A model generated the notes under the pieces. It was not told where the DNA came from and searched no databases. It was given only the letters and a program-made list of their open reading frames with translations. Below are positions 1,545 to 17,225 of a stretch of 20,000 nucleotides of DNA, piece by piece. The position numbers and the translations under genes are program-made. Position 1 is the first letter of the stretch; each line of letters opens with the position of its first letter. The stretch is from an uncultured virus (IMG/VR IMGVR_UViG_3300032516_007629). Lineage: Duplodnaviria > Heunggongvirae > Uroviricota > Caudoviricetes. The stretch lies in IMG/VR virus record IMGVR_UViG_3300032516_007629. One strand, written 5' to 3'.

Positions 1545-1557
1545 TATAATTCCTTTT

Positions 1558-2148
1558 TTAACCTAGGGTAGCGTCCTCAGACCCCGTGTGACTCTTACTT
1601 ACATACGCTATGGTAGCCGCAATACGAGTAATACCGTCCCCGTCACTAGTAATAGCATCATAGTTTTTACTAGTAAACCAGCATCCAGTGTAAGTCCAAA
1701 TATTATAAGTATTTGCTCCACGAATCCAGAACTCTTTAATAGAAAATGAAAAGTTTTGATCAATTAAATCGTCAAATAGTGCAGTCGCTCCTGCAAACGC
1801 ACGCTCCATCTCACCTTGCCAAAGTTCCGCACGAGTAACAGCGATCGTAAAACCCGTCGCCTTACCAGGAACGTACTCAACCGGACGACCCCAAAAGAAA
1901 TCAGAAAGCTCATAAAGATGCACACCCTCACGAGTGTAACTATCTGGCTGCCAAGATTGAATCCTACCGATAATGGAATTTGCTGAACCTGAAGACGCGG
2001 ACACAATCGACACACCATGATATGTTTTGGTAGTCAAAGCATTAGGCTTGGTATAATCAAATTGTGAAACAGCCGTCGTACCCTGATTTACATAATGAGT
2101 ATTGGGTAATCCTGTATCGGCATTGAATACACTAGAAAGAGCTGTCAT
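1558..2148 (-). CDS. Tail tube protein (gp19-like fold)
   Basis: 196 aa, one small ORF downstream of the sheath gene. IGRIQSW..YEL..VEYVPG..TIAVTRAELW..WTYTGCWFTS pattern is typical of large-myovirus tube proteins. GGAGA RBS. Confidence 0.8.
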   Translation of the reverse strand: MTALSSVFNADTGLPNTHYVNQGTTAVSQFDYTKPNALTTKTYHGVSIVSASSGSANSIIGRIQSWQPDSYTREGVHLYELSDFFWGRPVEYVPGKATGFTIAVTRAELWQGEMERAFAGATALFDDLIDQNFSFSIKEFWIRGANTYNIWTYTGCWFTSKNYDAITSDGDGITRIAATIAYVSKSHTGSEDATLG

Positions 2149-2173
2149 ATTATCTCCGTTAAAAGTTTCCTAT

Positions 2174-2482
2174 TTAATCTTTAGATTCTTCTTCCTCTGG
2201 TTCTTCTTCAGCAGAATACTTATTCAACAAAGCTTTAGATAACCCCAGAAGCTTTTTTGAAAACGCAACCATGTACTCATTGTCAATACCTTGCTCTTCC
2301 ACATAGTCTTCAATAGTCTTCAGCACAGATAATTTCTTAACTTTGTCTTCACGCATTAAATGGTACATTAAGGAATCTATAGTTTTGGTCGCAGACACAC
2401 CAGATTCGTGGTGCGCGTCAGACTCCCCGTCTAGAGCACTCACCACCCGGTAACTGTGAAGTATTTTGTCTTTAAAACTCAT
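2174..2482 (-). CDS. Hypothetical protein with acidic C-terminus, possible virion/internal head protein
   Basis: 102-aa ORF with AAGG RBS, packed between sheath and tube genes. Confidence 0.7.
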   Translation of the reverse strand: MSFKDKILHSYRVVSALDGESDAHHESGVSATKTIDSLMYHLMREDKVKKLSVLKTIEDYVEEQGIDNEYMVAFSKKLLGLSKALLNKYSAEEEPEEEESKD

Positions 2483-2505
2483 AAACCTTTTTCCTTTAAA
2501 ATCAG

Positions 2506-5500: not shown

Positions 5501-5556
5501 CCGATATAAGTACCCACCTCAACATAGCTAGTGGTTGTTAATTCTGGTGCTGCCAT
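2506..5556 (-). CDS. Contractile tail sheath protein with large repeated insertion domains
   Basis: 1016 aa. C-terminal sheath-like core (LDGSFVACAVAAL..ENLILGANHIIFF..EDVTT..DPTLFHIGYNY..KRIF); N-terminal YVEVGTYI; lies upstream of the tube gene. Confidence 0.88.
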   Translation of the reverse strand: MAAPELTTTSYVEVGTYIGQFFIPGAGTLPNNRRVPCIVAKGDRLFVVENTAIIRSFRLGEVLTFSAFSPFVATLAYPSNGAQASPVRLYNSNGNPVPTNMWKYLKDLSGNYTQIQILDTAYNASTQYVLDYQSTSRDAADPIPVVTIGPLNGVSAQIRSISAVGPYQSQAAYAEYINFFDPFVIDVPVPAVGNAHLTSSFSIVNSSGATGSGTVAVSGSASYLHPYSRLYKLEVTAASGLVGTRLATLAWTGTPVSAGNSALPATPISIALGLPTVTLDETNSLTLNNVPLELGVVLNFTFGGANFTIGDVFYVQANGAGLIEVDPLLSNTNQYTVLSAISPTLLPGSTGSATITSLASAYSFTSYNTGFRMICQAESGITPTRTATFVWSMYGSASASGSFSIAENVAGSLIQVLGSTGITLTLAFGGTQFVVGDQFDWTATAPRTFYKGKEDVRHISLSVSNVTNLANEALYSGGWLADTAEGGFGVWTADTSLNRGNFVINDGLSFYIRNGYLSSLVNAVPGGSQNQAGDKWLLSARSLGLLDFSLSEQDTAVFSNPGQIATDTTGALTATVGAKYITLDHIPQNIISVTRVSNGAPVSYVQIPGTAFLEFTSPSFSTADGDIQVVYQWFGPEPDPGQTYYLSGAYLRPAEMYETPFLFLGLGDVQKFLAPISSRNDLYLGATIAFDYAIPGLYVIQVRNAADDGNYSKSDYQRAINAFLDQPSATDLVVLNSFQNVGDQLNVVNQANNPFARHECITYFGAPIGTPIGSETEANSLVFYSQRTFAVYGQSAAHGSRVLVSATQAQRTFTFSDGSAQQMTLDGSFVACAVAALVASFPDPKATVLFENIIGFDSIETYTPQENLILGANHIIFFNNVGSGVYQIMEDVTTDAFSSDTLNLNQMTQKQFVTKDIRTTLTKAIIGQVFPSAGAGVALIEDILQTRLRTLVSSGFMGEYQDETGNTRSISAKDIFVVRDTADPTLFHIGYNYFLATVAKRIFGLFTVSLPGGFPS

Positions 5557-5622
5557 TATGTCCCCTTTTTCAAAACAACAAGGATCTTGTTAAGTGCCTC
5601 AATTTAATCTATGATTAAATGT

Positions 5623-6645
5623 TTAGAGGGTGATCCTAAAGGGGATATCCAAAACTAACTGGTTATTTGCGCCTGTGGCGTGATTTTGCGTGGCGGGTAA
5701 GGTAGAATCAAAAAGATAAAGAAGCGCTGTTCCTTGTCTTCTCGGTTGAATATACCAGGGAGGATTACTGCTAACTAAAGCTATGTTAGGATTAGAAACT
5801 CCTAACGTATGCTTTAACTGCATATTCTCAATAAGCAATGGATAAGCCATGCCTAAGGAAATGCCTTGATTGGGTACTAAATTAAGAAACGTAGGTGTGG
5901 GTCCACCTTCCGAAGAAGCAACAATACCGATGGCGGGTAATACAATCTTATTGAGTGGTAATTGAAACTCTATAATAGTTTCAAACTCCACTTGCAAATC
6001 TATTGTTCTAGTCCATATTTGACTCTTTACATCCCCCTCAACAGATACATTAGACATCTGCCCGGCAGCCACACCACCTAAAGGAAGTCTTACCTCCCAC
6101 TGATTTCCTGGACTGTGTATAACGTGTGCTTTAATAGCATCCACTAAATTGCTAAGTATATAGAATACAGTTCCGGATAATGTGGAAGTGTCTTCTTCGG
6201 AGTAGGTGGCTACTAGTATAGACAAACTTACTTTTACTAAGTAAACGCTAGTAGCACGCCAGCGATTCCTAAAACCAAAACCGTCTAGAAGAGCACTGAT
6301 CCCCGGATCCCCATCTTCTATACCACCATCTATAATCAAAATAGATGGTAGACGACCTGTGTTTTCCTGGAAAAACCTTGCTAAATAAGTCTTACGCTTA
6401 TTAGGATCCGCCTTCATCTCGTCATCGTAAGTTAACTCCGTGACATACTGAAGACCTTCCGGCGAAATCGTAGCGCCTAAATAACCCCTATTTTCACCCT
6501 TAGGATTTAAAAAACTATCTAAGAATCCCTGCATGGTACTCTTAGTAATAGATATAGCTTTATCCGCCACCTGATGCACATAAGTATCACGGCGGCTCTC
6601 TGGAACCTGATTAAAGCTATAACCTAAGGGAGGGGATTTAGCCAA
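5623..6645 (-). CDS. Probable neck/tail-completion (terminator-like) protein with a C-terminal Ig-like segment
   Basis: 340 aa directly upstream of the sheath gene. Has RFFQ..GRLPSILI and alternating beta-strands; C-terminal VSNPNIALV..PRRQGTALL resembles Big_2 domains. Confidence 0.55.
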   Translation of the reverse strand: MAKSPPLGYSFNQVPESRRDTYVHQVADKAISITKSTMQGFLDSFLNPKGENRGYLGATISPEGLQYVTELTYDDEMKADPNKRKTYLARFFQENTGRLPSILIIDGGIEDGDPGISALLDGFGFRNRWRATSVYLVKVSLSILVATYSEEDTSTLSGTVFYILSNLVDAIKAHVIHSPGNQWEVRLPLGGVAAGQMSNVSVEGDVKSQIWTRTIDLQVEFETIIEFQLPLNKIVLPAIGIVASSEGGPTPTFLNLVPNQGISLGMAYPLLIENMQLKHTLGVSNPNIALVSSNPPWYIQPRRQGTALLYLFDSTLPATQNHATGANNQLVLDIPFRITL

Positions 6646-7027
6646 TGATCCCCCACTCGTTACCTTTTAAAGATAGCAAATCACTATACTTACTTTTAAC
6701 AATATTTAAATGGTGAGAAAGCTCCAAGTTTTTTTCCTCTAACGTGTCTCGTAAGGTGTGCAATTGTAGATTTAACCTCTTACACTTTAAAACCCTGCGC
6801 ACCTTACTAAAGAAAATCCTTCTCCATAATGTATTCTCATTTCTAATGAGGATCTCCACCTCTTCAATGTCAAGCCACAATGTCCTTATAGAATGAATCG
6901 AAGTCTTCATCTGAAATAAATGTTTCCAGAAGTCAAATTTCCTACTCCCCCTTTCGAGGTTAAAAGGCGTTGAATGCACTTCAAGTAAGAGGGGAATATC
7001 TTTTTCAAGCTGAGAAATTGCGTCCAT
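6638..7027 (-). CDS. Hypothetical protein (helical/coiled-coil C-terminus)
   Basis: 129 aa, GGAGA RBS, stop overlaps the start of the next gene by 8 nt. Confidence 0.7.
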   Translation of the reverse strand: MDAISQLEKDIPLLLEVHSTPFNLERGSRKFDFWKHLFQMKTSIHSIRTLWLDIEEVEILIRNENTLWRRIFFSKVRRVLKCKRLNLQLHTLRDTLEEKNLELSHHLNIVKSKYSDLLSLKGNEWGIIG

Positions 7028-7036
7028 AAAATTCTC

Positions 7037-8296
7037 CTATTTTGAAAACGTCCTATTTACACTTTTTAAATTGAAAGTAGCGATTAAAAAATCCTCTACA
7101 CTCTTAGTTAAATTTATCGCCTGCTTTCCACACCATAATATACATTTATGCTTATCCGCACTAAAGTGCGCTACAAGATTTCCTTGTACATGCGTTCCCT
7201 TAACATACTGACCTGCGGGAATATTCTTTATATGTGATAGTTGTCCCGCTACATCCGTTAAAGCGTCTAATACCTTAGCCTCTGGATCAGGCTTTTTAAG
7301 CGTAGGAAATTGCTCCTCTCGCTCTTGGGCACGCTGCGACATGGGACGTAAAGGTGCAGCAGTCACCGCAGCAGCTATTTTTTCTTTCTCTTCTAGTGTA
7401 CCCATTTTTGCATCTGGATTAAGCGCTTCAGAACCTTCTAAGATAACACAGTTGTCCGGCGTGAACTCCCGAGGCTTGAGAGGCTTAAAAGCACTGTCTA
7501 TATTCGATAAGAAGTGTAAATCATCTACAAAGTTAGGAAGGGGCTTAAACTCCTTAAGCGTTTTGAAAAAAAGCTTACTCTCCTCTTCAGAACACAAGAT
7601 ATAAATCATACCGTCACGACCAGCATTGTCAGGATGACCACCTAGGTAAAATTGATGCTTCTTATGCTCCTTAGTGAGCCAACGCATATAGTCTAGAGGT
7701 ATCAAGGCAGACATCTGTAAAGCAGATATAGCACCTAAAGTATCATCCTTTTCCTTGTCCTGATCTCTAAGCTTGGTGTAACTAGAAAGCATAACGGCTC
7801 TCAGCTTAGAGGCATAGTCGCCAAGCTTTGACTCCATATCCACTGGTAATTTTATAGATTTAAAAGGAGATGCTGATCCCATATTTTTATCAAAAGGCTC
7901 TACAAAAGCTAAAAGACCTCCGGTAGCTTTTGCGGTTAACTCCTTCATAGACTTTTCGGATACGAGATACGCAAAAGTCAATTCTAAGGGTTCAGTACTC
8001 TTCCCGCTGATTTTAGATGGACCAGCTATTCGCTCTACATTTTTTTCATCATTAATAATATTTCCAGTTTCTTTGAAGAACTTTAAAACATTACTGGTCA
8101 ATCCGGGACCTGAAATAATAAAAAGGTAAGGGTTAAATTGCTTAATTTCAGCAAAACGACCCTCCTTATCTTGAAGAGATTTTCCTGTTTTAAATACGCC
8201 TTCTTTTGCTTTGGGTTTAGCTGCGTCCTTCTCCTCAGCTTGCTTGCGCACAGGAGGACGAGGATCGGCAGCATGAATTTTATACAGATAAGACAT
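7037..8296 (-). CDS. Hypothetical protein
   Basis: 419-aa ORF with AGGA RBS; Lys-rich; no recognisable motif. Confidence 0.85.
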   Translation of the reverse strand: MSYLYKIHAADPRPPVRKQAEEKDAAKPKAKEGVFKTGKSLQDKEGRFAEIKQFNPYLFIISGPGLTSNVLKFFKETGNIINDEKNVERIAGPSKISGKSTEPLELTFAYLVSEKSMKELTAKATGGLLAFVEPFDKNMGSASPFKSIKLPVDMESKLGDYASKLRAVMLSSYTKLRDQDKEKDDTLGAISALQMSALIPLDYMRWLTKEHKKHQFYLGGHPDNAGRDGMIYILCSEEESKLFFKTLKEFKPLPNFVDDLHFLSNIDSAFKPLKPREFTPDNCVILEGSEALNPDAKMGTLEEKEKIAAAVTAAPLRPMSQRAQEREEQFPTLKKPDPEAKVLDALTDVAGQLSHIKNIPAGQYVKGTHVQGNLVAHFSADKHKCILWCGKQAINLTKSVEDFLIATFNLKSVNRTFSK

Positions 8297-8335
8297 AGCA
8301 TCCTATAGAAAGAATATTAATCGTTTAAGTTAATC

Positions 8336-10171
8336 TCAGTCTCTATAAGGTACTAAGGCTTTATGTCTTGGGACGTGTAACTCCGCTACGATGTTAGGAT
8401 CTATCTTACTTAGCGCGGTGATTAGTCGCTCATTCTGGTATGTTTTCTTATAGATTTTATCTATTCTTGCCTCTGAAGATACCGACCACCTAGGCTTAAG
8501 CATCCCACCATTTCCGCTAGAAGAAGCATTCTCCTGATCATCTTCCACGGTTCCTCCAGGACCCGCAGGTTGTTCTTTAGGAGCAGCACCACCGCCGCCA
8601 CCCATGTCTATTTCTTCCTCGCCACCACCACCACCGCCACCTGCTTCTTCACCCATTCCAAGTTGTACGAGGCGCTTTCTTAGAATTGCGTCTTCCCCCA
8701 TCATGGAAATAGCTTTATCTAAATCATAACCAGCCGCCGATGCTAAAATACGCAGTGGCAAAGGTAAGCCTAGATCTTTAAGCTGGACTAGCATTTCGAC
8801 CCAGGCAGGATCTCCCTCAGGACGCAGCGTTTCCTCTGTCGCAAGCGTAGGGATGACAAGCGACCTTAAAGGTATCTCCATAGCCATCTTAGCTGAGATG
8901 TACGCCTTGTTATGTCCACCTGTACGGATATTGTGACTTAATTCCGCTGTCGTTCTTTTTTGGAAATTATGCACACGCGCAAATGTCGGGAAGATCTGCT
9001 TATAAAAAATATCGTTAAGAACTGTTTCTTTAAAAGCCGTTATCTGTTTACCTAAAGAGGTACGGGCGGACTCCATATTGCTGACATTCGTTTCACCGGA
9101 AAGGTATGCTTCAGAGACACCTAGAGATCTCATCTTAATCGTGGATAAAAATTCAAATTCCTGACTAATACCCCAAATCGCTGTAGGGTCTCTAACCTCA
9201 GAAACCTCCACACCGTTTCTTACGGAAATAACCCCGCCGACAGGATCTTCATCTGCTTGCATGAATAAATTGGTAAGAGACGAAATCTCTTCGTCCGTAG
9301 GTAGCCAGTCGTCTTCTATACCCGCTGTAATTAAAAGGATCGCTCTGTTGCGACGACGAGCACCAATTAAACTCGCATTCCAAAGCGCCATCTCATATGC
9401 CCACGCAGGCAGGATACGAGTAAATATAGACGTTCCAATATGGTCATACTGATTAACCCGGCGTGCTAGGAAAAGCGTATTCAAGGGATCTAAAGGAATA
9501 TAACCCGATTGGTTTTGTACTAAATCAAGGACAGCAGGATTCATCCCGGATTTTAGTTCCACAATCCTAGGATCCGTACTGCGTGCAAAATTACGCCATG
9601 CAGGAGAAGACAACACATCAATAAGAGGCTTTTGACCCGACACAGGTAGAGGTTCAATCATCGCAAAATCGGGATCCACCGTAACCATAGAATCCCAATA
9701 GCCCAAGCGCTCATTGAAAGATAAGCTACTAATGCTCCTGCCAATAATCTGGAGTTCCCGACAAATCATCGGAAGCTGACTCCAAAGATCTAAACCCTCC
9801 ATCATATCGTTATACATCTGCTTTATCTTATTATCGTCCGTATCAAAGATAAGCTCCCAACTCTTACCCCAAGGTAGATTGGAAAATAAATCCACCACCG
9901 TCCCCGCAATAGCATCCCGCAAATAAATTTTGCGAAACATCATGTGCAGGTTAGTGGGCTGTCTAGGGATCCAGTCCTCAAGGACTGATCCTTCCTCTAA
10001 CCTATCATTGACGATATTAAAGCGCGTACCGCCATACATGTCCCCTCCCGTAGAAGGGAGACCCGTACTAGCATGCAGCCTAACATCCCCTGTCACTCTG
10101 TTTTTATAAGGTGGGTTGCGCTTATCTAGGTAAGAACCGACAACTGTCTTTTTCCAATTAAAATAACCCAT
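8336..10171 (-). CDS. Portal protein (large-myovirus type)
   Basis: 611 aa. IYLRDAIAGTVVDLFSNLPW, IPLDPLNTLFLAR..GTSIFTRIL, and LGVSEAYLSGE.N.S motifs match portal architecture; Gly/acidic C-terminal tail. AAGGAG RBS. Confidence 0.8.
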   Translation of the reverse strand: MGYFNWKKTVVGSYLDKRNPPYKNRVTGDVRLHASTGLPSTGGDMYGGTRFNIVNDRLEEGSVLEDWIPRQPTNLHMMFRKIYLRDAIAGTVVDLFSNLPWGKSWELIFDTDDNKIKQMYNDMMEGLDLWSQLPMICRELQIIGRSISSLSFNERLGYWDSMVTVDPDFAMIEPLPVSGQKPLIDVLSSPAWRNFARSTDPRIVELKSGMNPAVLDLVQNQSGYIPLDPLNTLFLARRVNQYDHIGTSIFTRILPAWAYEMALWNASLIGARRRNRAILLITAGIEDDWLPTDEEISSLTNLFMQADEDPVGGVISVRNGVEVSEVRDPTAIWGISQEFEFLSTIKMRSLGVSEAYLSGETNVSNMESARTSLGKQITAFKETVLNDIFYKQIFPTFARVHNFQKRTTAELSHNIRTGGHNKAYISAKMAMEIPLRSLVIPTLATEETLRPEGDPAWVEMLVQLKDLGLPLPLRILASAAGYDLDKAISMMGEDAILRKRLVQLGMGEEAGGGGGGGEEEIDMGGGGGAAPKEQPAGPGGTVEDDQENASSSGNGGMLKPRWSVSSEARIDKIYKKTYQNERLITALSKIDPNIVAELHVPRHKALVPYRD

Positions 10172-10203
10172 ATCTCCTTTAATGAGCTTTCGCTCTCGAA
10201 TAA

Positions 10204-10665
10204 TTAGCCTCTAATATGTTGTCTAAATAATAGCATAAGCTTTTTTCTGTCCTCTGGGCGCACAATATGCTTCGTATCCCAGAGGAGCGTCACGATAACT
10301 TTAGGAGCCATCTCCTTGAAAAAAGCTAACCAACTATCGTCGGTTAAATTAAAAGGATCTGTCCTCTGCATCGCCTGCTCAAAGGCAGCCATGAGATCCC
10401 TTAAATGCACAAAATTTGTACTAGCCTTCTTAGTGGTCTTTCCGTAATCGAATTGATCCTCACCCAAAGACACACCGTCAAATCTACGAGCCTTCTTTGG
10501 CTTGTTCGCCTTGTTCGGTTTGAAAGGTGCAATATGACCCTTGCCCTTAAGTGGAGTGGACTTCTTTCCCTTCGCAGGTTTTATCTTAGCCTTATCCTTG
10601 CGGGGGGTAGATTCCGTCCCATCCTTGCGGATATAAGCCTCTACTTTTTCTAAAAAACTAGTCAT
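10204..10665 (-). CDS. Hypothetical protein with Lys-rich N-terminal half
   Basis: 153 aa, start overlaps the upstream stop; AAGG RBS-like site. Confidence 0.75.
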   Translation of the reverse strand: MTSFLEKVEAYIRKDGTESTPRKDKAKIKPAKGKKSTPLKGKGHIAPFKPNKANKPKKARRFDGVSLGEDQFDYGKTTKKASTNFVHLRDLMAAFEQAMQRTDPFNLTDDSWLAFFKEMAPKVIVTLLWDTKHIVRPEDRKKLMLLFRQHIRG

Positions 10666-11176
10666 TCTTTTTCACCTTAGCCGGAAACACTACATGATGC
10701 ATGCGGCAGTATTTGGCAGGTCTTCCCCCCACAAGTTTAATATCTGAGGTAGCAATCTTACAGATGGGACAATATTCGTTAGAATCTACCGAAGCTTTTT
10801 TAGCCTCCACATTCTTCTGTGTTGAATATCTATTGAATAGTTTATCAATAACTGTCCCAGAAGCTAGCACTGATTCGGGTTCACCAGAATAATAAATATC
10901 AGCAGCTACACTTTCTATTGCATCACGAGTTTTATCCTTGTAACGACGCTCTAATACAGATGCAATTGTTTCTTTTTTAAGCACACCACCTCCAATACCA
11001 AAAGGATCTAAATCTTCAATTGTTACGGGTCCTCCAGGTACACCCTCTAAGTAATACTTATTCTTCTTCCCCGCCCCCTGATCCTCTTCGTCTAAAACAT
11101 CATACCACTTACCTTTGTATTTAGCTTTCCAGGGTTTACTACTGCTATACGGTTTTTTTAACGCGGATGAAGGCAT
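10658..11176 (-). CDS. Hypothetical protein with C-terminal zinc ribbon
   Basis: 172 aa; CPIC-x17-CRMH at the C-terminus; starts 1 nt after the upstream stop. Confidence 0.75.
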   Translation of the reverse strand: MPSSALKKPYSSSKPWKAKYKGKWYDVLDEEDQGAGKKNKYYLEGVPGGPVTIEDLDPFGIGGGVLKKETIASVLERRYKDKTRDAIESVAADIYYSGEPESVLASGTVIDKLFNRYSTQKNVEAKKASVDSNEYCPICKIATSDIKLVGGRPAKYCRMHHVVFPAKVKKND

Positions 11177-11177
11177 A

Positions 11178-12170
11178 CTACCCTACTTTTTGTTGTGGAC
11201 CTAAACCTGTTGCTTTAAGTATTGCTGCAAAAGCAGGTTCGGTAAGTTTAACTTTATTTTCTACAACTTTAACCTTAACTAAAGAGCCGAGCATCTGTTT
11301 AACCTTTAAAGGCTTAAGAAGAACATCTTGTATTTCTTTAGGCATATTATCATGCTCAAGTTTGTCTATAACCACTACAACATCAAAGCCCTTTAGAGCC
11401 AGTTTCTCGATAGCTTTAATGCGCCTTAAATCACTAGGAGCGCCGGGTTCCAGTACACGTTGAAAACGCCGTCCATCCTTGTCATCCGCCAAAAGATGAA
11501 TCCTAATCTTGTGATTTTTCTTATCCATAGCTTCGATATAGTCATCATGGGCAATCAAATCTGATCTGGTATTTATAGTTAAAGGCTTGCCTTTATGCTT
11601 TTCTAGTAATTTTAATGTGACTTTATACTTACTATCCATCCATATAAAAGGATCCGATCCACCCATTGGTACGTCTTTACCTAGAGTTCCTTTTAGATCT
11701 TCTACTTTGCGAGGTAACGGATGTGGTAAGCCTTCTTCTTTTTCGCTAATTCTCCAGGCAGCGTTGTGAATATCTCCAAAATACGGCTCGTGATGACTTT
11801 CTTTGATGATTTTAGTCAAAAACTCTTTACCGTTTTCAACGTCAGAAAATCTGTCTATCAACCCGTCTAGTGCTTCTTGATCTATCCAGTCTTGGTCTTT
11901 AAGAAGGCTTTTGAGTTTGGAGACGCGCTTTGTTTTTTCTACGAGTAGGCTCTTGTCTACACTTTTTCTAAAAGCTTCTGGGACAATAACTTTATTGTCT
12001 TTTACACTATATTTTGGTTTGTTTGACGGGGGGTCGTCTTTAAACTCGACACCGTGACGAATGGGTTTATTATTGCGCAAACCCTCTTTGATGTCTTCTT
12101 TGGTAGGCTGGTTTTTAGCTCGCTCACGATCAGAGATAATTTTAGCAACGATTTTCGATATAAAACGCAT
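11178..12170 (-). CDS. Protein with a degenerate spore-photoproduct-lyase-like (Rv2578c-type) radical SAM barrel, lacking the Fe-S motif
   Basis: 330 aa. C-terminal half has GxSDPF, TLKLLE, INTRSDLI, RVLEPGAPS..RRIKAIEKL..GFDVVVVI, colinear with the SPL-like family pattern. The protein contains no Cys. AAGGAG RBS. Confidence 0.65.
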   Translation of the reverse strand: MRFISKIVAKIISDRERAKNQPTKEDIKEGLRNNKPIRHGVEFKDDPPSNKPKYSVKDNKVIVPEAFRKSVDKSLLVEKTKRVSKLKSLLKDQDWIDQEALDGLIDRFSDVENGKEFLTKIIKESHHEPYFGDIHNAAWRISEKEEGLPHPLPRKVEDLKGTLGKDVPMGGSDPFIWMDSKYKVTLKLLEKHKGKPLTINTRSDLIAHDDYIEAMDKKNHKIRIHLLADDKDGRRFQRVLEPGAPSDLRRIKAIEKLALKGFDVVVVIDKLEHDNMPKEIQDVLLKPLKVKQMLGSLVKVKVVENKVKLTEPAFAAILKATGLGPQQKVG

Positions 12171-12219
12171 AAAGGCTCCTTGTAAGATTACATTGAATCT
12201 TAATCGGAGCTACAAACGG

Positions 12220-12257
12220 AAAAACCCGCTTTAAGGAGCGACCCCTAAAGCGAGTTT
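12220..12257 (-). terminator. Second intrinsic-terminator-like hairpin
   Basis: - strand AAACUCGCUUUAGGGG-UCGC-UCCUUAAAGCGGGUUU(UU): 16-bp stem with three G-U pairs that form only on the - strand. Confidence 0.65.
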
Positions 12258-12289
12258 AAAAAAACACGGAGGGGTTAGCCTCCGTGTTT
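12258..12289 (-). terminator. Intrinsic terminator, probable 3' end of the candidate ncRNA
   Basis: Perfect 11-bp inverted repeat AAACACGGAGG (12262-12272) / CCTCCGTGTTT (12279-12289), ending in a U7 tract on the - strand. Confidence 0.8.
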
Positions 12290-12292
12290 CAG

Positions 12293-12379
12293 TGATCTTT
12301 AACGGAATCAACCGAAGGGTAAATTGGCACCCTCTCCTGATGTTTTAAGGGAATCACCCTAAGGGTAAAAGGTACCCTC
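12293..12379. repeat. Two imperfect 42-nt tandem repeats
   Basis: 12293-12334 tgatctttaacggaatcaaccgaagggtaaattggcaccctc versus 12338-12379 tgatgttttaagggaatcaccctaagggtaaaaggtaccctc. Confidence 0.85.
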
Positions 12380-13138
12380 ACCTAAAAGTCATAGTCTTGT
12401 CACCAAGGCTGCGGCTTTTGATTTTTTTACGAGGTGATCTCCTCGCTGACAAAGGTTGCCCTTTGTGGGTTTTTTACACAGTTTCCTTCTGTGAAGAGGA
12501 AGGCAAGGCGCTTAGCCTTTGCTCTGCCTCCCCCGTCCTTGGCATTCAGGTAGACCTCCAAGGCGGTCTCGGGATGACGGATGTTAACCGATTAACATGT
12601 TTTCCCGCGTTTCAGTCCGTTGCAAACTAGACTCCGTTCGTTACCTTTTTGTTTGAGGAGTTTTCTCTCCGTGTGGAGCGTTGTCCTATAAGAGAGCTAC
12701 TCTTATAGAGATTCTATCCACACATTCTAAACTCAAAGAGTTTCCGCTATCATCCCCCTAATCAGGTTTCACACGAGCAGCATGAAGCCTTAGCCGAAGC
12801 TCAGGGCGGTTCCTTTTAATGTCTTGACCTGGACAGATTTTTTCAACAAGTTTCTCTTCTTGTGTAGACAGCTAGATATGCCTACCTTTGAGCCATTGCT
12901 GATCGTATTACTGCGTCTCCTTGAATAATCGATACCTCATCATAAGATATCTGGCTTCTTGGATCCTATTAGTGGGTAGGTGCTACCCTTTACCCCGATC
13001 AGGAGATTTTTTTTAGCTCATCCCAAAGAGCCTCGTTGGTTTGCACCGCCGACACAGAAGGTTCTACAGAACCATCCTGCCGATGGCAAGCGTAAATGTA
13101 TCTTCGTACATTTTTTCTTCGTGGTTAAATTTTGCACA

Positions 13139-13744
13139 TTAATCAGTTTTAGCTCCTAAAAGGATTTCATCACTCAACTGCAAGGTAAGATCCTTTATGG
13201 CTGCTTGCTGTGCCGCTGTAATCGTCACCTCATCGAACCAAGCAATCGACAAAAATCCAATCATGTCGTGCTTACTTGAAAAAATACCTCGTATTAAAGC
13301 GGATTTCGCACCGCCGTAGCGCAGCAAGCCTTTAAAATAAGAATCCTGTAAGAGATCGTCACTCGAATAAAAAACTGTGGAGATTTTCAAAATCTCATCC
13401 GTAACACCTAATAGATACCCAATAGGAATATTCTGGTGAGTTGCTTCAAAAGGAATACCTACACCACGGTTGAGTACAAAATGCGTCATGGATGCTTTTT
13501 GTATTGAACCACCTGATACATAGTGATCTCCGTTATGGAATTGATAGAGTTGAACTCTATCTGCATCACAATAGCTTCTTATTTCTGCTAGAAGCTGCTT
13601 TATCATTAAATTCTCTCGGATACTGCGCTTGATAGTTTTTTTCTTAAGGTAATTTTTAGCGCTTCTCGCCCATACCGCTATTACCCCAAGCAACACACCA
13701 GACAATACCTGACCCAATCCTATCCAAAATTCAGACAATTCCAA
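13139..13744 (-). CDS. Membrane-anchored GAF-like domain protein, probable T4 gpT-type holin
   Basis: 201 aa, TTG start. One N-terminal hydrophobic helix (FWIGLGQVLSGVLLGVIAVW), then a GAF-like pattern ADRVQLYQFHNG..GAKSALIRGI..IGFLSIAW. Confidence 0.6.
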   Translation of the reverse strand: MELSEFWIGLGQVLSGVLLGVIAVWARSAKNYLKKKTIKRSIRENLMIKQLLAEIRSYCDADRVQLYQFHNGDHYVSGGSIQKASMTHFVLNRGVGIPFEATHQNIPIGYLLGVTDEILKISTVFYSSDDLLQDSYFKGLLRYGGAKSALIRGIFSSKHDMIGFLSIAWFDEVTITAAQQAAIKDLTLQLSDEILLGAKTD

Positions 13745-13758
13745 GGAGTACCCTTTCT

Positions 13759-14034
13759 TTAACGCATATGTGGATGTTCTTTTTTATGGCAATTTTCACA
13801 AATCGTCTTGAGGTTAAGTAAGAAATCTCCGCCCCCACGACTCTTACTTACAATATGATGGGCATGCAGCGTGGCAGTTCCACCAGCTAGCTTACCCCTA
13901 GCTCCACACTCCGTACACGCATACCCGTCACGGCGCTTACACTCCTCTGATAAATTCCTCCATGCAGATTTATCCCCACTGCAATATTCTGGAAATTTCC
14001 ATTTAGTGCGCCGCTTATAAAGAGGTTGACCCAT
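13759..14034 (-). CDS. Small HNH endonuclease
   Basis: 91 aa; RRDGYACTECG..LHAHHIVSKSRGG..NLKTICENCHKKEH is a canonical Zn-binding HNH signature. AAGGAG RBS. Confidence 0.9.
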   Translation of the reverse strand: MGQPLYKRRTKWKFPEYCSGDKSAWRNLSEECKRRDGYACTECGARGKLAGGTATLHAHHIVSKSRGGGDFLLNLKTICENCHKKEHPHMR

Positions 14035-14087
14035 CTAGCTCCTTGATATTAGAGTATACACCTAATCTTTAATTATGAGAACATCCC

Positions 14088-14633
14088 ATGCACTATACTG
14101 GAATCGGCTCTAGAGACGTACCCGAGGTCTACCAAAACATACTAAGAACTATCGCCAAGTCTCTCGCTGAAAAAGGTTACACCCTCCGCTCAGGAGGAGC
14201 AAAAGGCGCAGATACTGCTTTTGAAGAGGGCGCTTTAGACGCTAAAGGGAAAATGGAAATATACCTCCCATGGGGCAAGTTTAACGGTAGAAGCGATAAA
14301 GAAGATGGGTACTATTCCACTAGAGATTCGCATTACGATTTTTACAAAAAAGCAAAAGAAGTAGCCGCCAAATTTCATCCGGCGTGGGACAATCTAAATG
14401 ATGGCTCTAAAATGCTCCACACGCGCAATGTCCACCAAATTTTAGGACTCGACGTAGAAACCCCTAGCAAGTTTCTAATCTGCTACTCCGAAGCCAACGC
14501 ACCCTATAAAGAAGGATTCGTAGGAGGTACCGGACAAGCCCTGCGCATAGCGACTAGCCTCAAACTTCCCATCTACAACTTGGCAAATGAAGAATTAGCT
14601 AGGCAATGCCTAGAGATGCTTAAAACTATTTAG
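14088..14633 (+). CDS. SLOG-superfamily (DprA/Smf-like Rossmann) protein
   Basis: 181 aa; YTGIGSR, LRSGGAKGAD, RN, and GGTGQALRIA..PIYNL motifs. Confidence 0.85.
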   Translation: MHYTGIGSRDVPEVYQNILRTIAKSLAEKGYTLRSGGAKGADTAFEEGALDAKGKMEIYLPWGKFNGRSDKEDGYYSTRDSHYDFYKKAKEVAAKFHPAWDNLNDGSKMLHTRNVHQILGLDVETPSKFLICYSEANAPYKEGFVGGTGQALRIATSLKLPIYNLANEELARQCLEMLKTI

Positions 14634-14820
14634 ACCAGTTTTTTAAGCTGATGATCTCAGGCTCGTACACTTTAGTGACGGCACGCATCATCTGATAAGA
14701 ACCTTGACCAAATTCAATGTGACTTCGCGCATGTTCCACCACAAGGAAAAGCTCTTTAAGAAGCTGCTTATCTTCTTCGTTTAGCTTCTCGCTAAGCTTT
14801 TCTATTCGTTGGTGGAGCAT
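14626..14820 (-). CDS. Small hypothetical protein
   Basis: 64 aa; ATG coupled to the upstream stop (TAATG). Confidence 0.6.
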   Translation of the reverse strand: MLHQRIEKLSEKLNEEDKQLLKELFLVVEHARSHIEFGQGSYQMMRAVTKVYEPEIISLKNWSK

Positions 14821-15140
14821 TATAGCGAAATCTTATCTGCAAATTTCTTCTCTAAAGAATAAGGAGAAATATTCCCATGATCGGAGATCATCCAAATATT
14901 GGGTGCCCATTTATTTTTGTTGATCCAATCGACGATAGCTTTTTCTGCCGCATCGTGACTGTTAAACGTGCCAATATGCTTATGCCCCACAGACACATTT
15001 AACTTAGAGCCTAATTGTCCCGTTGGTTCAATGAAAATATCGTCATCATCCGGCTCATCTTCACTTACTTCATGCTCTTCATGCTCTTCCTCCAGAGCAA
15101 CGATCGCATACTTATCGCGGATAATTTTTAGAAAAGACAT
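14820..15140 (-). CDS. Acidic hypothetical protein (106 aa; start re-called to 15140)
   Basis: AAGGAG at 15147-15152 precedes ATG at 15140 (MSFLKIIRDKY...). The track's longer start at 15398 overlaps the opposite-strand HNH gene. Confidence 0.75.
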   Translation of the reverse strand: MSFLKIIRDKYAIVALEEEHEEHEVSEDEPDDDDIFIEPTGQLGSKLNVSVGHKHIGTFNSHDAAEKAIVDWINKNKWAPNIWMISDHGNISPYSLEKKFADKISL

Positions 15141-15240
15141 TAACGGCTCCTTAAAATAATGAATCTTACAACAAAAAGAATTTGCAGCACAAACAAGTAA
15201 AAGTTTCTTTGGTAAAAAACGAAAAAAAGTAGAAGCAGGA

Positions 15241-15846
15241 ATGGAATTTGGAAAATTAACAACTATAAGCCCTTGTCGAGTATTTGGTGGAAAATACCCA
15301 GGTTGGCTATGTAAATGCGAATGTGGAAACTTTGCTGAAATAAGAACTAGTAACTTCACATCCGGACACGTAAAGAGTTGCGGATGTTTGCGCCACACTT
15401 GTAATGCTTACACGGATCCTAAAGAAGCTTCATGGAATAAATTTAAGTCTATCTATGAGCAAGGAGCTAAAAAGCGATCCTTGAGTTGGGAACTCGATGT
15501 CAAATTGTTTAGACTCCTGACTATTTCTAACTGCTATTTTTGTGGTTCCCTTCCGTATAAAATATTTACTGCATATGAGATAAAGAGTGGTAAGAGATTT
15601 CATGGGGTTTCAGGTCCTAGGTTAGAGCAATCTAAAATTGTGGTTAATGGAATTGATAGACTAGATAACAATATTGGATATACTACAGAAAATTCTGTGC
15701 CTTGCTGTAGTATTTGTAATTTTGCTAAGAGAGATCTGGATTTAACTATTTTTGAGTCGTGGTTAGATACCATCACAGAATTTAGAATAAAAAAGAGGGT
15801 GGGAATTGATTTCCCACCCTCTTTCCTTGAAAGAAAAATTGCTTAG
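15241..15846 (+). CDS. Free-standing HNH-type homing endonuclease-like protein
   Basis: FGKLT..WLCKCECG..SCGC N-terminal module, then CYFCG..GIDRLDNNIGYTTENSVPCCSICNFAK nuclease core. Start codon uncertain. Confidence 0.85.
   Translation: MEFGKLTTISPCRVFGGKYPGWLCKCECGNFAEIRTSNFTSGHVKSCGCLRHTCNAYTDPKEASWNKFKSIYEQGAKKRSLSWELDVKLFRLLTISNCYFCGSLPYKIFTAYEIKSGKRFHGVSGPRLEQSKIVVNGIDRLDNNIGYTTENSVPCCSICNFAKRDLDLTIFESWLDTITEFRIKKRVGIDFPPSFLERKIA
15789..15824 (-). terminator. Intrinsic terminator of the 244-aa gene, lying within the 3' end of the opposite-strand HNH ORF
   Basis: Perfect 14-bp inverted repeat AAAGAGGGTGGGAA (15792-15805) / TTCCCACCCTCTTT (15811-15824), 18 nt after the 244-aa stop, with a U-tract on the - strand. 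Confidence 0.85.
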
Positions 15847-16577
15847 TTATTCCACTCCACGCCTAACATCATCGCGCCACTTGTAGGCGTGACACCGATT
15901 TGCGGGGCATACACGACATGTCCACCAGGAACCACGGGACCAACACCACCTGTGGTAAGGATACCGCCCGCACCTAGCGTGATCGCTCCAGCAGCAACAT
16001 TAGTCCAGTCAACACTTTGATCGTAGAAGGCAGTGTAGAGACGACCTTTGCCTTTCATCACACCAACTTGACCGAAGTAGTTAGGGTCAGGATAGTTGGT
16101 AGGAGCTTGGTAGTAGAAAGTTTGCGCTTGCGCAACAGTCAAATTCCAACGGTAGTAAATTTTCATTTGCAATCCCGCTTCAGCAGCGTTGAACGTCAAC
16201 AAGCCGTTGATATAATCCACTTGCACTTGACCTGGGAGAGGCGCAACGACAACCACAAGCAAATCTGAATTGGTTAACACATTATGCACACGAAGCTGAC
16301 CGGCAAGCAAGTTGTTCCACTGAAGCTGAATCGTGTAAGGAGCAGCACCAGGAACCGTATCTAGTTCCACGAATGGTGCAGTCGCGTAGCTCAACTGACG
16401 AAACGAGGCGAAACCAGCAAAAGTCTCACCTGCAAGACCAGCCGAAGGCTTAACATATTCAACGCCGCCAATTAATACACTGACCAATCCGCAACCTTCT
16501 TCCGTAACTCCACTGCCAACCGCAATTGGGGTCGAGTCTACTCTTTCTTGATATGTCTTACGAAGATCAATAGCCAT
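15843..16577 (-). CDS. Virion structural protein, probable head decoration/minor capsid protein
   Basis: 244 aa, beta/Gly-rich. EEGxGLV..YVKPSAG.AGE.FAGF and C-terminal LGVE resemble decoration proteins of large myoviruses. Strong AAGGAG RBS and its own terminator. Confidence 0.6.
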   Translation of the reverse strand: MAIDLRKTYQERVDSTPIAVGSGVTEEGCGLVSVLIGGVEYVKPSAGLAGETFAGFASFRQLSYATAPFVELDTVPGAAPYTIQLQWNNLLAGQLRVHNVLTNSDLLVVVVAPLPGQVQVDYINGLLTFNAAEAGLQMKIYYRWNLTVAQAQTFYYQAPTNYPDPNYFGQVGVMKGKGRLYTAFYDQSVDWTNVAAGAITLGAGGILTTGGVGPVVPGGHVVYAPQIGVTPTSGAMMLGVEWNN

Positions 16578-16629
16578 TTTATAACTCCTTATCTAAATTG
16601 TGGGAGAAAAGTATTCTCTCCCGATGCAA

Positions 16630-16639
16630 TTAATCTATG
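16630..16639 (-). promoter_or_regulatory. Candidate late-promoter motif CATAGATTAA (identical copy at 5604-5613)
   Basis: The same 10-mer lies ~50 nt upstream of both the decoration and sheath genes. Core GATTAA also occurs at 2174, 8317, 8330, 12200 and 13139. Confidence 0.5.
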
Positions 16640-16703
16640 CAGCACTTTCATTTATTTTTAAAAACGATTACAATGTTAATAACGATTACCATAGAGGAGA
16701 AAA

Positions 16704-17225
16704 ATGAGGTCAAGGGGCGATCTAACTGGCAACCAGTATTCTTTCTGGTGTGTTCTAGGTCCTGCGGAAAAATCAAAGTCAGGCAAGAAGCGTTGGTTGT
16801 GTAAATGTATTTGTGGGCGAGAGAGGTCTGTATTTCAAAACGTCCTATTAAACGGCAAGTCACGCAGTTGTGGGTGTCGTAACGGCGAGGATCTTACGGA
16901 TCAGCAGTTTGGTTTTCTTACTGCACTGCGCCCAGTTATTAGAGGAGACGGTGTTAAAGTATGGCTTTGTAAATGTATATGTGGAGAAGAGCCTCTGGTT
17001 AGACCTAATTCCTTGAAAAGGGGTGCTACCACGTCTTGTGGTTGCGAAGGCTTAAAAAGAAGAAAAGAGGCACTGCGTAAGTCTAGTACACTTAAGCCGT
17101 GCCGTTATTGCGGTCGTATATCTAAGTATTGCATCATCTGTAATAGGGCTAAACAAGATATGCCGACTAAGGAGTTCCAAGATTGGATAGACTCCTTAGT
17201 AGCCTATCAGCTTAAAGAGCCCTAA
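16704..17225 (+). CDS. HNH homing-endonuclease derivative with duplicated Cys-rich module and deleted catalytic core
   Basis: 173 aa. Two DLT..F..WLCKCICG..SCGC repeats, then CRYCG-RISKY-CIICNRAK with no IDR..N..N segment. GAGGAG RBS. Confidence 0.8.
   Translation: MRSRGDLTGNQYSFWCVLGPAEKSKSGKKRWLCKCICGRERSVFQNVLLNGKSRSCGCRNGEDLTDQQFGFLTALRPVIRGDGVKVWLCKCICGEEPLVRPNSLKRGATTSCGCEGLKRRKEALRKSSTLKPCRYCGRISKYCIICNRAKQDMPTKEFQDWIDSLVAYQLKEP

What the first reader, a model, noticed from the sequence alone, without database searches (positions are those of the whole stretch)
12258..13120. Candidate novel giant structured ncRNA (~850 nt) inside a phage virion gene cluster
Seen in sequence: the ~970-bp gap is by far the largest in a region where genes mostly abut or overlap, and it is nearly wall-to-wall stems. 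Read on the - strand these include AAAUGUA/UACAUUU (13094-13113), CUUGCC/GGCAGG (13076-13090), GGGUAG/CUACCC (12974-12988), GAUAUCUUA/UGAGGUAUC (12931-12951, two G-U), GUAGGCA/UGUCUAC (12864-12885), AGC-UUCG-GCU (12792-12801), a long arm GUGUGGA..CUAUAAGAG/CUCUUAUAG..UCCACAC (12671-12723), AUGUUAA/UUAACAU (12581-12598), ACAAAGG-GCAA-CCUUUGU (12449-12466) and CUUG-GUGA-CAAG (12396-12407), joined by A-rich linkers. The tetraloops and most G-U pairs favour the - strand; the 12384-12419 stem pairs somewhat better on +. Established knowledge: phages encode large ornate RNAs of similar size (GOLLD, ROOL). Inference: this is an independently transcribed RNA of that kind. I saw no hallmark of GOLLD, ROOL, tmRNA, RNase P or group I/II introns, so it may be a new class.
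Basis: partly seen in the sequence, partly recalled or inferred. Interest (0 to 1): 0.9.

Follow-up and report, generated by a model that had tools for sequence, protein, structure and literature searches.

The report
New large structured RNA in phage
The long gene-free stretch next to the capsid genes of this uncultivated sediment phage holds a conserved, heavily folded RNA element that matches no known RNA family, and its job is still unknown.

Summary
It folds well beyond shuffled controls: z -6.6 on each strand.

The stronger evidence is comparative. The element lies directly after the same 201-aa gene in three divergent metagenomic phage lineages: the window, L003 and L005-7. Their proteins are only 53-58% identical. 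The lineages share unpaired motifs and helices that keep pairing through double changes:
- 21 of 69 hand-aligned pairs are compensatory, against 1-2 in slid controls.
- 17 of 68 pairs change on both sides on the unedited MAFFT alignment, against 1-6 slid, with 0 of 500 shuffles reaching this.

Nothing matched in Rfam 15, 50,697 phage genomes, IMG/VR or GTDB genomes.

Intrinsic terminators, G-U pairs and UUCG/GNRA loops favour the minus (gene) strand, though not decisively.

Independent transcription is not shown. In L005 the element starts at the upstream stop codon, which suggests co-transcription. The conserved part is about 560 nt. The closest relative (L001/2) carries only a ~240-nt mini version, and other relatives have none.

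Verdict: a real, probably new family of large phage RNA. It is known from only three lineages, with no expression data.

The parts
12171..13138 (.). Whole non-coding gap between the 201-aa gene and the 330-aa gene
   Evidence: ORF list; stops in all six frames; no tRNA or tmRNA; no Rfam family.
12258..13097 (-). Proposed RNA element, from the first conserved 5' block to the U-run of terminator 1 (about 840 nt)
   Evidence: The 5' limit comes from homology of gap positions 42-139 with L005 1-94 (z 5.8). The 3' limit comes from the terminator.
13000..13097 (-). 5' conserved block, including the motif CUGUGUCGGCGGUGCAAAC shared with L001, L003 and L005
   Evidence: Local alignments against shuffles: z 5.8 for W against L005, z 4.9 for W against L001, z 5.6 for L005 against L003.
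12537..12885 (-). Conserved core (helices H1-H15 of my table), shared with L003 and L005-7
   Evidence: fold_alignment A3; nhmmer E 1e-53 to 1e-74; helix table with 21 of 69 compensatory pairs; tool count of 17 of 68.
12752..12763 (-). Invariant unpaired or junction motif GAUUAGGGGGAU. Its G-run pairs with CCCUG at 12802-12806 and closes a two-hairpin junction.
   Evidence: The same architecture appears in the separate MFE folds of W and L005.
12792..12801 (-). Hairpin AGC-UUCG-GCU. The loop is GUAA in L005 and UUCGU in L003.
   Evidence: A swap between stable tetraloops argues for RNA.
12671..12723 (-). Long arm GUGUGGA...UCCACAC with apical loop UAGCU
   Evidence: 4 of the 7 outer pairs are compensatory across the three lineages. 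The apical UAGC is conserved (helix 7).
12657..12670 (-). Hairpin GGAG-AGAAAA-CUCC followed by UCAAACAAAAAGG. A module of this type recurs at 12846-12863 and 12430-12445.
   Evidence: The closing pair is G-C, C-G and U-A in the three lineages. An exact match to GAGAGAAAACTC occurs only here in the window. An internal duplicate in L003 is found by model R1, E 0.0099.
12614..12633 (-). Hairpin with the conserved palindromic apex (G)UUGCAAC
   Evidence: 2 compensatory pairs between W and L005. It is the only TTGCAAC in the window. The 3' arm in L003 is a contig-end palindrome and was not counted.
12289..12449 (-). 3' hairpin region, including a duplicated two-hairpin unit (46-nt spacing). It is shared with the mini element of L001/L002.
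   Evidence: Direct repeats D2 and D3. W 641-900 against L001 81-282 gives z 13.5. Seen by eye in the printed sequences, not counted by a script: stem changes C-G to U-A and G-C to A-U.
12258..12287 (-). Intrinsic terminator 1 (ACACGGAGG...CCUCCGUGU followed by U7)
   Evidence: Sequence and MFE fold. The homologous terminator ends the element in L001, and there is a terminator at the same place in L005.
12215..12257 (-). Intrinsic terminator 2
   Evidence: Terminator scan: 16-pair stem followed by a T-rich tail.
12175..12210 (-). Leader hairpin holding the ribosome-binding site of the 330-aa gene, with the motif UAAGAUUCA. Not part of the RNA element.
   Evidence: Inverted repeat I5. The motif sits at the same place in L001/2 and in L004, which lacks the RNA.
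13139..13744 (-). 201-aa gene, always directly upstream of the element (N-terminal helix plus a GAF-like domain)
   Evidence: phrog_14038. 12 relatives found. GAF matched in 3 of 12 members. Weak PDB matches to GAF sensor domains. The AF2 model is poor, pLDDT 49.
13759..14034 (-). 91-aa HNH endonuclease gene upstream of the 201-aa gene
   Evidence: Pfam HNH E 6e-12. An ORF of similar size (90-103 aa) lies just upstream of the 201-aa gene in L001, L004 and L005, and the window's HNH region aligns at the DNA level to L001, L003, L005 and L007. I did not test these ORFs against HNH models.

Best explanation
The gap encodes a member of a previously undescribed family of large structured phage RNAs.

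How I think it is made: it is read from the - strand, the same direction as all flanking genes. Most likely it is the 3' continuation of the transcript of the 201-aa gene. Two tandem intrinsic terminators at 12215-12287 end it.

What it folds into: a conserved 5' block and a conserved core of about 350 nt fold into a multi-helix structure.
- A junction is closed by CCCUG with the G-run of GAUUAGGGGGAU.
- There is a UUCG/GNRA-capped hairpin.
- There is a long arm with a UAGC apex.
- A hairpin module of the type GAG-AGAAAA-CUC followed by UCAAACAAA recurs.
- There is a hairpin with a palindromic UUGCAA apex.
- Lineage-specific hairpins are inserted between these parts and joined by A-rich linkers.

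How I think it acts (inferred, not shown): it is a stable accessory RNA working in trans during infection, in the manner of GOLLD and ROOL. It may assemble with itself through the palindromic loop. I do not think it is a regulator of one particular neighbouring gene.

Odds for the separate steps:
- Conserved RNA-level structure: about 0.85.
- Minus strand: about 0.75.
- Co-transcription with the upstream gene: about 0.55.
- Trans-acting, self-assembling accessory RNA: about 0.3.
For: Homology and covariation:
- Of the 8 metagenome loci with the 201-aa gene, L003 and L005/6/7 carry a homologous element directly after it (nhmmer E 1e-53 to 1e-67), although the protein is only 53-58% identical.
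- RNAalifold predicts 34 pairs, 11 of them with both sides changed.
- My helix table has 14 helices and 69 aligned pairs. 160 of 168 cells are canonical and 21 pairs are compensatory. Slid controls give 35-43% canonical cells and 1-2 compensatory pairs.
- The count of structure pairs on the unedited MAFFT alignment finds 17 of 68 pairs with double changes, against 1-6 slid. 77.5% of cells are paired, against 31-50% slid. 0 of 500 shuffles reach this.

RNA rather than DNA, and strand:
- G-U pairs number 6 against 1 A-C on the gene strand, and the reverse on the other strand.
- The same hairpin is capped by UUCG, GUAA or UUCGU in the three lineages.
- Terminators on the gene strand end the element in W, L001 and L005.
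- L005 folds at z -8.3 on the gene strand and -6.4 on the other.
- G+C is raised over the flanks.

Not coding.

Not a leader of the next gene:
- The downstream neighbour differs between lineages. It is a 330-aa gene in W, a 106-aa gene in L001 and tRNA-Gln in L005-7.
- The upstream gene is constant.
- In L005 the homology starts at the stop codon.

Context like ROOL and GOLLD: it is phage-encoded, sits next to a tRNA in one lineage, and is patchily distributed. Passages of Kretsch et al., bioRxiv 10.1101/2024.12.08.627333, say ROOL and GOLLD are phage or prophage RNAs near tRNA islands that multimerise through kissing loops and A-minor contacts.
Against: - There are only three independent lineages, and L003 is cut by its contig end. 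No R-scape-type statistic is possible. My helices were chosen by eye and by MFE from these same sequences, which inflates the share of paired cells.
- RNAalifold scores the opposite strand just as well: -27.3 against -25.2 kcal/mol, and 15 against 11 double changes.
- The window folds equally well on both strands.
- The + strand has two terminator-like hairpins, at 12449-12475 and at about 13094-13120.
- In run X22, both variants that fall in stems (12450 C>T and 12986 C>T) make A-C on the - strand but G-U on the + strand. A third variant (12459 C>T) spoils the GCAA loop. The contigs have depth 4-6 and the stems lie outside the conserved core.
- 240-nt windows of the conserved core have unremarkable z-scores of -1.4 to -2.4.
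- The closest relative (L001/2, protein 73% identical) lacks the core. L004 has no element, and no similarity was found in L008 or in the portal relatives L012-L020. The element is therefore dispensable.
- There is no expression evidence of any kind.
Confidence: 0.55

Rival explanations
1. It is a cis-acting 3' untranslated region of the HNH/201-aa transcription unit. A long array of hairpins ending in terminators protects the upstream mRNA from 3' exonucleases and insulates it from the late virion operon. It has no function of its own in trans.
For: The element is always attached to the same upstream gene, and in L005 it abuts the stop codon. Tandem terminators follow it, and then a conserved leader (UAAGAUUCA plus ribosome-binding site) precedes the next gene. 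The mini version in L001/2 keeps mainly hairpins and the terminator.
Against: Protection or insulation needs one or two hairpins, not about 800 nt. It does not explain invariant unpaired motifs (GAUUAGGGGGAU, UCAAACAAA, ACGG, the UAGC and UUGCAA apices) or a conserved multi-helix junction kept across 53-58% protein identity. L004 joins the two units with 45 nt and no terminator.
Confidence: 0.2
2. The functional transcript is on the + strand. It would be an antisense or convergent RNA ending at the + strand terminator-like hairpins.
For: Folding z is equal on both strands in the window. RNAalifold is as good on the opposite strand. Hairpins followed by T-runs lie on the + strand at 12449-12475 and 13094-13120. 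The X22 stem variants are G-U-compatible only on the + strand.
Against: G-U pairs outnumber A-C 6 to 1 on the gene strand in the aligned helices. UUCG and GNRA loops read as such only on the - strand. The strongest terminators are on the gene strand and sit at the conserved 3' end in three lineages. L005 folds better on the gene strand. There is no + strand gene or predicted promoter upstream.
Confidence: 0.1
3. It is a DNA-level element: a packaging (cos/pac) site, a replication origin or a protein-binding region. The HNH endonuclease and portal genes nearby suggest a packaging site.
For: An HNH gene next to packaging and portal genes is typical of cos-type modules (recalled: Kala et al. 2014, not read here). 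GTTGCAAC is an 8-bp DNA palindrome conserved in the three lineages.
Against: Compensatory changes in 21 of 69 pairs, the G-U excess and the tetraloop swaps are not expected for duplex DNA sites. G+C is raised, not lowered, and there are no iteron arrays. The element is absent from close relatives that must also package and replicate (L004, and the reduced form in L001/2). The 201-aa protein looks like a membrane GAF-type protein, not a small terminase.
Confidence: 0.07
4. It is leftover sequence from decayed genes or mobile inserts at a recombination hot spot, rich in hairpins by accident or through repeated terminator-like units, and has no function.
For: The site is a hot spot. It holds different cargo in each lineage: a 330-aa gene, tRNA-Gln, an integrase-domain gene, a 60-nt tandem repeat. 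Peripheral hairpins are lineage-specific, and population variants weaken two of them.
Against: Decayed sequence would not keep motifs and paired helices across lineages whose neighbouring protein is 53-58% identical. There is no trace of a protein frame.
Confidence: 0.05

Closest known systems
ROOL RNA (rumen-originating, ornate, large)
   Same: A phage-encoded, large (hundreds of nt), many-helix RNA of unknown function. It has a patchy distribution and sits next to a tRNA gene in one lineage (L005-7). ROOL properties are from passages of bioRxiv 10.1101/2024.12.08.627333.
   Different: There is no match to the Rfam model, even at E<=10, in W, L003 or L005. The motifs differ. The element is tied to a 201-aa gene. 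It is known only from sediment, freshwater and microbial-mat metagenome contigs. Multimerisation is untested.
[quoted passage not shown]
   Same: Similar size (about 800 nt). One part is better conserved and another is variable. Both are phage-borne and can lie near tRNAs (passages).
   Different: No Rfam match. In GOLLD the 3' region is the universally conserved part. Here the 5' block and the middle are conserved and the 3' third varies.
phi29-type packaging RNA (pRNA)
   Same: A phage RNA encoded near the packaging and portal genes. pRNA oligomerises by loop-loop pairing (recalled knowledge). Here a conserved palindromic loop lies near a portal gene.
   Different: pRNA is about 120-170 nt (recalled). 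No Rfam family matched, and I did not check that a pRNA model is among the 4227. The element is absent from close relatives with the same portal, so it cannot be an essential packaging part.
3'UTR-derived bacterial small RNAs
   Same: The element is probably made from the 3' end of an mRNA and shares the mRNA's terminator.
   Different: Those RNAs are 50-200 nt with a seed region (recalled). This one is about 800 nt with a conserved multi-helix core.

Membership tests
GOLLD | Match to the curated covariance model (conserved 3' domain with its pseudoknots) | tested here: not met
   cmscan against Rfam 15. No hit at gathering score in the window or the loci. No hit at E<=10 in W 12100-13250, L005 5550-6700 or L003 3500-4204.
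ROOL | Match to the curated covariance model | tested here: not met
   The same searches.
ROOL/GOLLD-like kind (not family) | Phage-encoded, over 500 nt, extensive conserved secondary structure, no coding frame | tested here: met
   Phage context. Element of about 840 nt with about 560 nt conserved. Covariation. Non-coding.
ROOL/GOLLD-like kind (not family) | RNA-only multimer formed through kissing loops | not testable with these tools
   Only a conserved palindromic apex UUGCAA is seen. No tool here folds RNA complexes.
tmRNA / tRNA | tRNA-like domain and tag reading frame, or a cloverleaf | tested here: not met
   ARAGORN finds 0 genes in the window. No Rfam hit.
Group I / group II intron | Match to the intron core models, and interruption of a host gene | tested here: not met
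   No Rfam hit at E<=10. The upstream gene is whole with or without the element: its relatives are 198-210 aa and it is a 218-aa ORF in L004, which has no element.
RNase P RNA, 6S RNA, HEARO/OMEGA guide RNAs | Match to the curated models. For guide RNAs, also an adjacent IscB/TnpB gene. | tested here: not met
   No Rfam hit. No protein matched IscB or TnpB families in Pfam or PHROGs.
Replication origin / cos site | AT-rich unwinding region, iterons or mapped DNA ends | tested here: not met
   G+C is 0.48 against 0.38-0.42 in the flanks. Only two-copy repeats are present. DNA ends cannot be mapped with these tools.

The most novel reading that the evidence does not exclude
This is a new class of ornate phage RNA of about 0.8 kb, built from an internally duplicated module (arm, then a GAG-AGAAAA-CUC hairpin, then an A-rich tract). 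It assembles into homo-oligomers through its conserved palindromic UUGCAA loop. Like the ROOL and GOLLD nanocages, it would act as an RNA-only scaffold or container during infection, made as the tail of an mRNA and not from its own promoter.
Probability: 0.2. Interest if true: 0.85.

Novelty: new variant of a known kind. Interest (0 to 1): 0.7.

Why it matters
Very few natural RNAs longer than 500 nt are known to have conserved architecture without coding for anything. Two of the best known, ROOL and GOLLD, are phage RNAs whose function is still unknown although their cage-like structures have been solved.

A third, unrelated family in an uncultivated clade of phages with jumbo-phage-type portals would show that phages invented such RNAs repeatedly. 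It also has a natural mini version and a constant protein-gene partner, which gives a new handle on what these RNAs are for.

The element is small enough for direct in vitro transcription, chemical probing and cryo-EM.

Tried and rejected
- **Known RNA families.** Rfam 15 at gathering score and at E<=10 returned only sub-threshold chance hits: FsrA 20 bits against an 80-bit threshold, SAM-II 16 against 44, and similar.
- **tRNA or tmRNA.** None in the window.
- **Hidden protein gene or alternative genetic code.** All three stop codons occur in every frame. No conserved frame.
- **DNA similarity to 50,697 phage genomes.** No match for the W, L005 or L003 elements, or for window 8000-16000.
- **IMG/VR.**
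  - Searches with the 330-aa and 201-aa proteins found no relatives.
  - Three motif scans gave 3 chance hits (L009-L011, which read as coding or unrelated sequence) or nothing.
  - 9 loci of portal relatives (30-56% identity) contain no copy by nhmmer or by model R1.
- **GTDB genome contigs.** A motif scan and a portal scan found nothing.
- **Own genome.** None is held.
- **Sequencing runs.** No RNA holder is listed. The 24 runs that hold the stretch are all sediment DNA. Contigs of four runs gave only 6 single-base variants.
- **Dispersed promoter or regulatory motif.**
  - GAGAGAAAACTC: 4 matches with up to 2 mismatches against 2.15 expected, and the only exact one lies in the gap.
  - TAAGATTCA: 7 against 7.4 expected.
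- **CsrB-type sponge.** I counted GGA triplets by eye at about 20, against about 17 expected from composition. This was not computed in a call, and I dropped the idea.
- **Link to the downstream 330-aa gene.** The 317-aa gene after the element in L006 is unrelated to it.
- **Structure of the 201-aa protein.** The AF2 model was too poor (pLDDT 49) for a fold search.
- **Earlier findings of this scan.** Three look-ups returned nothing.
- **Literature.** Three full-text searches turned up no description of this element. They cover open-access papers and bioRxiv only.
Full report
**1. What is there**

- The window carries a run of minus-strand phage virion genes. These include a portal (8336-10171, phrog_16240, E 4e-98), a sheath-like 1016-aa protein and virion structural proteins.
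- The portal is about 30% identical to portals of jumbo phages such as Erwinia Y3-like phages and Ralstonia phiRSL1.
- Between the 201-aa gene (13139-13744, -) and a 330-aa gene (11178-12170, -) lie 968 bp, while the other genes abut or overlap.
- The gap has no open frame. Each of the six frames holds 12-22 stops of all three kinds. It has no tRNA or tmRNA.
- Its G+C of 0.48 is above the flanking 0.38-0.42.

**2. More structure than chance?**

- The whole gap folds at z -6.59 on the - strand and -6.63 on the + strand, with 20 shuffles each.
- In 240-nt windows the excess is uneven. It is -3 to -5 in the 3' third, which holds two terminators, and only -1.4 to -2.4 over the part that turned out to be conserved.
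- For comparison, 92 windows of the window's bases 1-11160 have mean -0.95, sd 1.37, and extremes down to -5.3.
- Thermodynamics alone would therefore not carry the claim.

**3. Comparative evidence**

Where relatives were and were not found:
- No DNA match exists in 50,697 phage genomes.
- The 201-aa protein has 12 relatives in metagenomes. A metagenome scan with their alignment returned 8 loci.

What follows the gene in those loci:
- 282 nt in L001/L002.
- At least 667 nt, cut by the contig end, in L003.
- 45 nt in L004.
- 1062 nt in L005, and 1734 and 1735 nt in L006 and L007, each containing a tRNA-Gln.
- In L008, 479 nt to the contig end, in which nhmmer and model R1 found no similarity to the element.

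Homology:
- The window's gap (read on the - strand), L003 and L005-7 are homologous (nhmmer E 1e-53 to 1e-74).
- This holds although the neighbouring protein is only 58% and 53% identical and its DNA 64-68% identical.
- Shared unpaired motifs include GAUUAGGGGGAU, AAGAC(A/G)UUAAAA, UCAAACAAA, ACGG, an apical UAGC and (G)UUGCAAC.

Covariation:
- Between the shared motifs lie helices that keep pairing while their sequences change.
- RNAalifold on a plain MAFFT alignment predicts 34 pairs, 11 of them with double changes.
- My coordinate-based table of 14 helices has 69 aligned pairs. 160 of 168 cells are canonical. 21 pairs are compensatory, 4 vary on one side only, 37 are invariant, and the remaining 7 have at least one unpaired cell (one of these, 398/408, is already among the 21). 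Sliding the 3' partners by 1-3 positions gives 35-43% canonical cells and 1-2 compensatory pairs.
- Using the window's own structure on the unedited MAFFT alignment, the count of structure pairs finds 17 of 68 pairs with double changes, against 1-6 slid. 77.5% of cells are paired, against 31-50% slid. 0 of 500 shuffles reach this.
- Examples:
  - The outer long arm reads GUGUGGA/UCCACAC, GUGCG/CGCAC and CCAAG/CUUGG in the three lineages.
  - The small hairpin N-GAG-AGAAAA-CUC-N' closes with G-C, C-G or U-A.
  - The hairpin AGC-loop-GCU carries UUCG, UUCGU or GUAA.

Caveats:
- There are only three independent lineages.
- I chose the helices from these same sequences.
- The last 3' arm in L003 is a contig-end palindrome. 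I left it out of my table, but it is still in alignment A3.

**4. Extent and make-up**

- Homology with L005 starts at gap position 42 (window 13097) and at position 1 of the L005 spacer, directly after the stop codon (z 5.8 against shuffles).
- It runs, with lineage-specific inserted hairpins, to about gap position 602 (window 12537).
- The next ~250 nt (window 12289-12536) are not alignable with L005. Part of this stretch, plus the terminator, is shared with the 282-nt spacer of L001/L002 (z 13.5), again with stem changes such as C-G to U-A.
- L001/2 thus carry a mini version: the 5' motif, three hairpins, one GAG-AGAAAA-CUC module and the terminator. It folds at z -7.8.
- Because the more distant L003 and L005 have the core, the mini form is most simply a deletion.
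- The arm-plus-hairpin module occurs twice in W and in L003. Model R1, built on the second copy, finds the first copy in L003 at E 0.0099.
- The model finds nothing in 9 loci of more distant portal relatives.

**5. Strand and ends**

For the minus (gene) strand:
- Two strong intrinsic terminators sit at the 3' end (12215-12287).
- A terminator also ends the element in L001 and in L005.
- G-U pairs outnumber A-C 6 to 1 in the aligned helices.
- UUCG and GNRA loops read as such only on this strand.
- L005 folds at z -8.3 on this strand and -6.4 on the other.

Against:
- RNAalifold is as happy with the other strand.
- Two hairpins are followed by T-runs on the + strand.
- In one run, the two variants that hit stems (12450 and 12986, both C>T) give A-C on the - strand but G-U on the + strand. 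Both stems lie outside the conserved core, and the contigs have depth 4-6.

I put the minus strand at about 0.75.

**6. How it is made**

- The upstream neighbour is constant and the downstream neighbour is not. It is a 330-aa weakly radical-SAM-like gene in W, a 106-aa gene in L001, and tRNA-Gln in L005-7. In L005 the tRNA is followed by a 697-aa protein with an integrase domain, and in L006/7 by a tandem repeat.
- After the terminators, W, L001/2 and the element-free L004 share a short leader (UAAGAUUCA plus the ribosome-binding site) in front of whatever gene comes next.
- So the element sits between the end of the 201-aa gene and the start of the next unit.
- In L005 there is no room for a promoter of its own outside the coding sequence.
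- Co-transcription with the 201-aa gene is therefore the simplest reading (inference, about 0.55).
- No RNA data exist.

**7. What it does**

- Nothing here shows function.
- A leader role for a specific downstream gene is unlikely, because the neighbours vary.
- A purely protective 3' UTR does not explain invariant unpaired motifs and a conserved junction.
- A DNA site is unlikely given compensatory changes, the G-U excess, raised G+C, and absence from relatives that must also replicate and package.
- My best guess is a stable accessory RNA acting in trans. It resembles ROOL and GOLLD in size, phage origin, patchy occurrence and, in one lineage, a neighbouring tRNA.
- Passages of Kretsch et al. 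(bioRxiv 10.1101/2024.12.08.627333) state that ROOL and GOLLD are phage or prophage RNAs near tRNA islands, of unknown function, that form cages through kissing loops and A-minor contacts.
- The conserved palindromic UUGCAA apex (the only TTGCAAC in the window) would allow self-pairing. This is speculation.
- The 201-aa partner looks like a protein with an N-terminal helix and a GAF-like domain, which gives no clue to an RNA role.

**8. Novelty**

- The element is not a member of any of the 4227 Rfam 15 families.
- It does not appear in the phage, IMG/VR or GTDB collections searched.
- Three literature searches found no description. They cover open-access papers and bioRxiv only.
- It belongs to the known kind 'large ornate phage RNAs of unknown function' but is a separate family with its own architecture.
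- Support is limited to three lineages plus a mini form, all from metagenome contigs.

Noticed in passing
L005:6394-8759: Directly after the element, L005 has a tRNA-Gln (anticodon UUG) followed by a 697-aa ORF with a Phage_integrase domain (E 2e-8). The near-identical L006/L007 have different sequence after the same tRNA. This looks like a mobile element integrated at a phage-borne tRNA gene.
   Followed up: partly
L006:3819-4045 (same in L007): A 60-nt unit is repeated 3.8 times (85% matches) in non-coding DNA downstream of the tRNA-Gln. Each unit contains a GC-rich hairpin (GCCCGCAGGGC). Its purpose is unknown.
   Followed up: no
window 12175-12210; L001:3900-3945; L004:3961-4005: A short conserved leader with UAAGAUUCA and a hairpin that sequesters the ribosome-binding site precedes the first gene after the 201-aa gene, whichever gene that is, in W, L001/2 and L004. 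It may be a phage promoter or a translational control site.
   Followed up: partly
window 14088-17225: Three + strand genes interrupt the - strand virion cluster. One is DprA-like (phrog_768, E 4e-59). Two are HNH or endonuclease-VII-like (15241-15846, 16704-17225). They look like free-standing homing endonuclease insertions.
   Followed up: no
window 11178-12170: The 330-aa gene after the element has a sub-threshold radical-SAM match (22 bits against a cut-off of 29.5). It is absent from the closest relative L001/2, so it appears to be accessory cargo at the same hot spot.
   Followed up: partly
L003:4135-4204: The contig ends in a perfect inverted repeat centred on GTTGC|AAC. It is probably an assembly fold-back at the natural hairpin. 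Sequence beyond about 4170 should not be trusted.
   Followed up: yes
window 12577-12580 and 12634-12637: ACGG (5' of the UUGCAA hairpin) and CCGU (inside the next helix) are complementary and invariant in W and L005. They could form a pseudoknot. There is no variation to test it.
   Followed up: no
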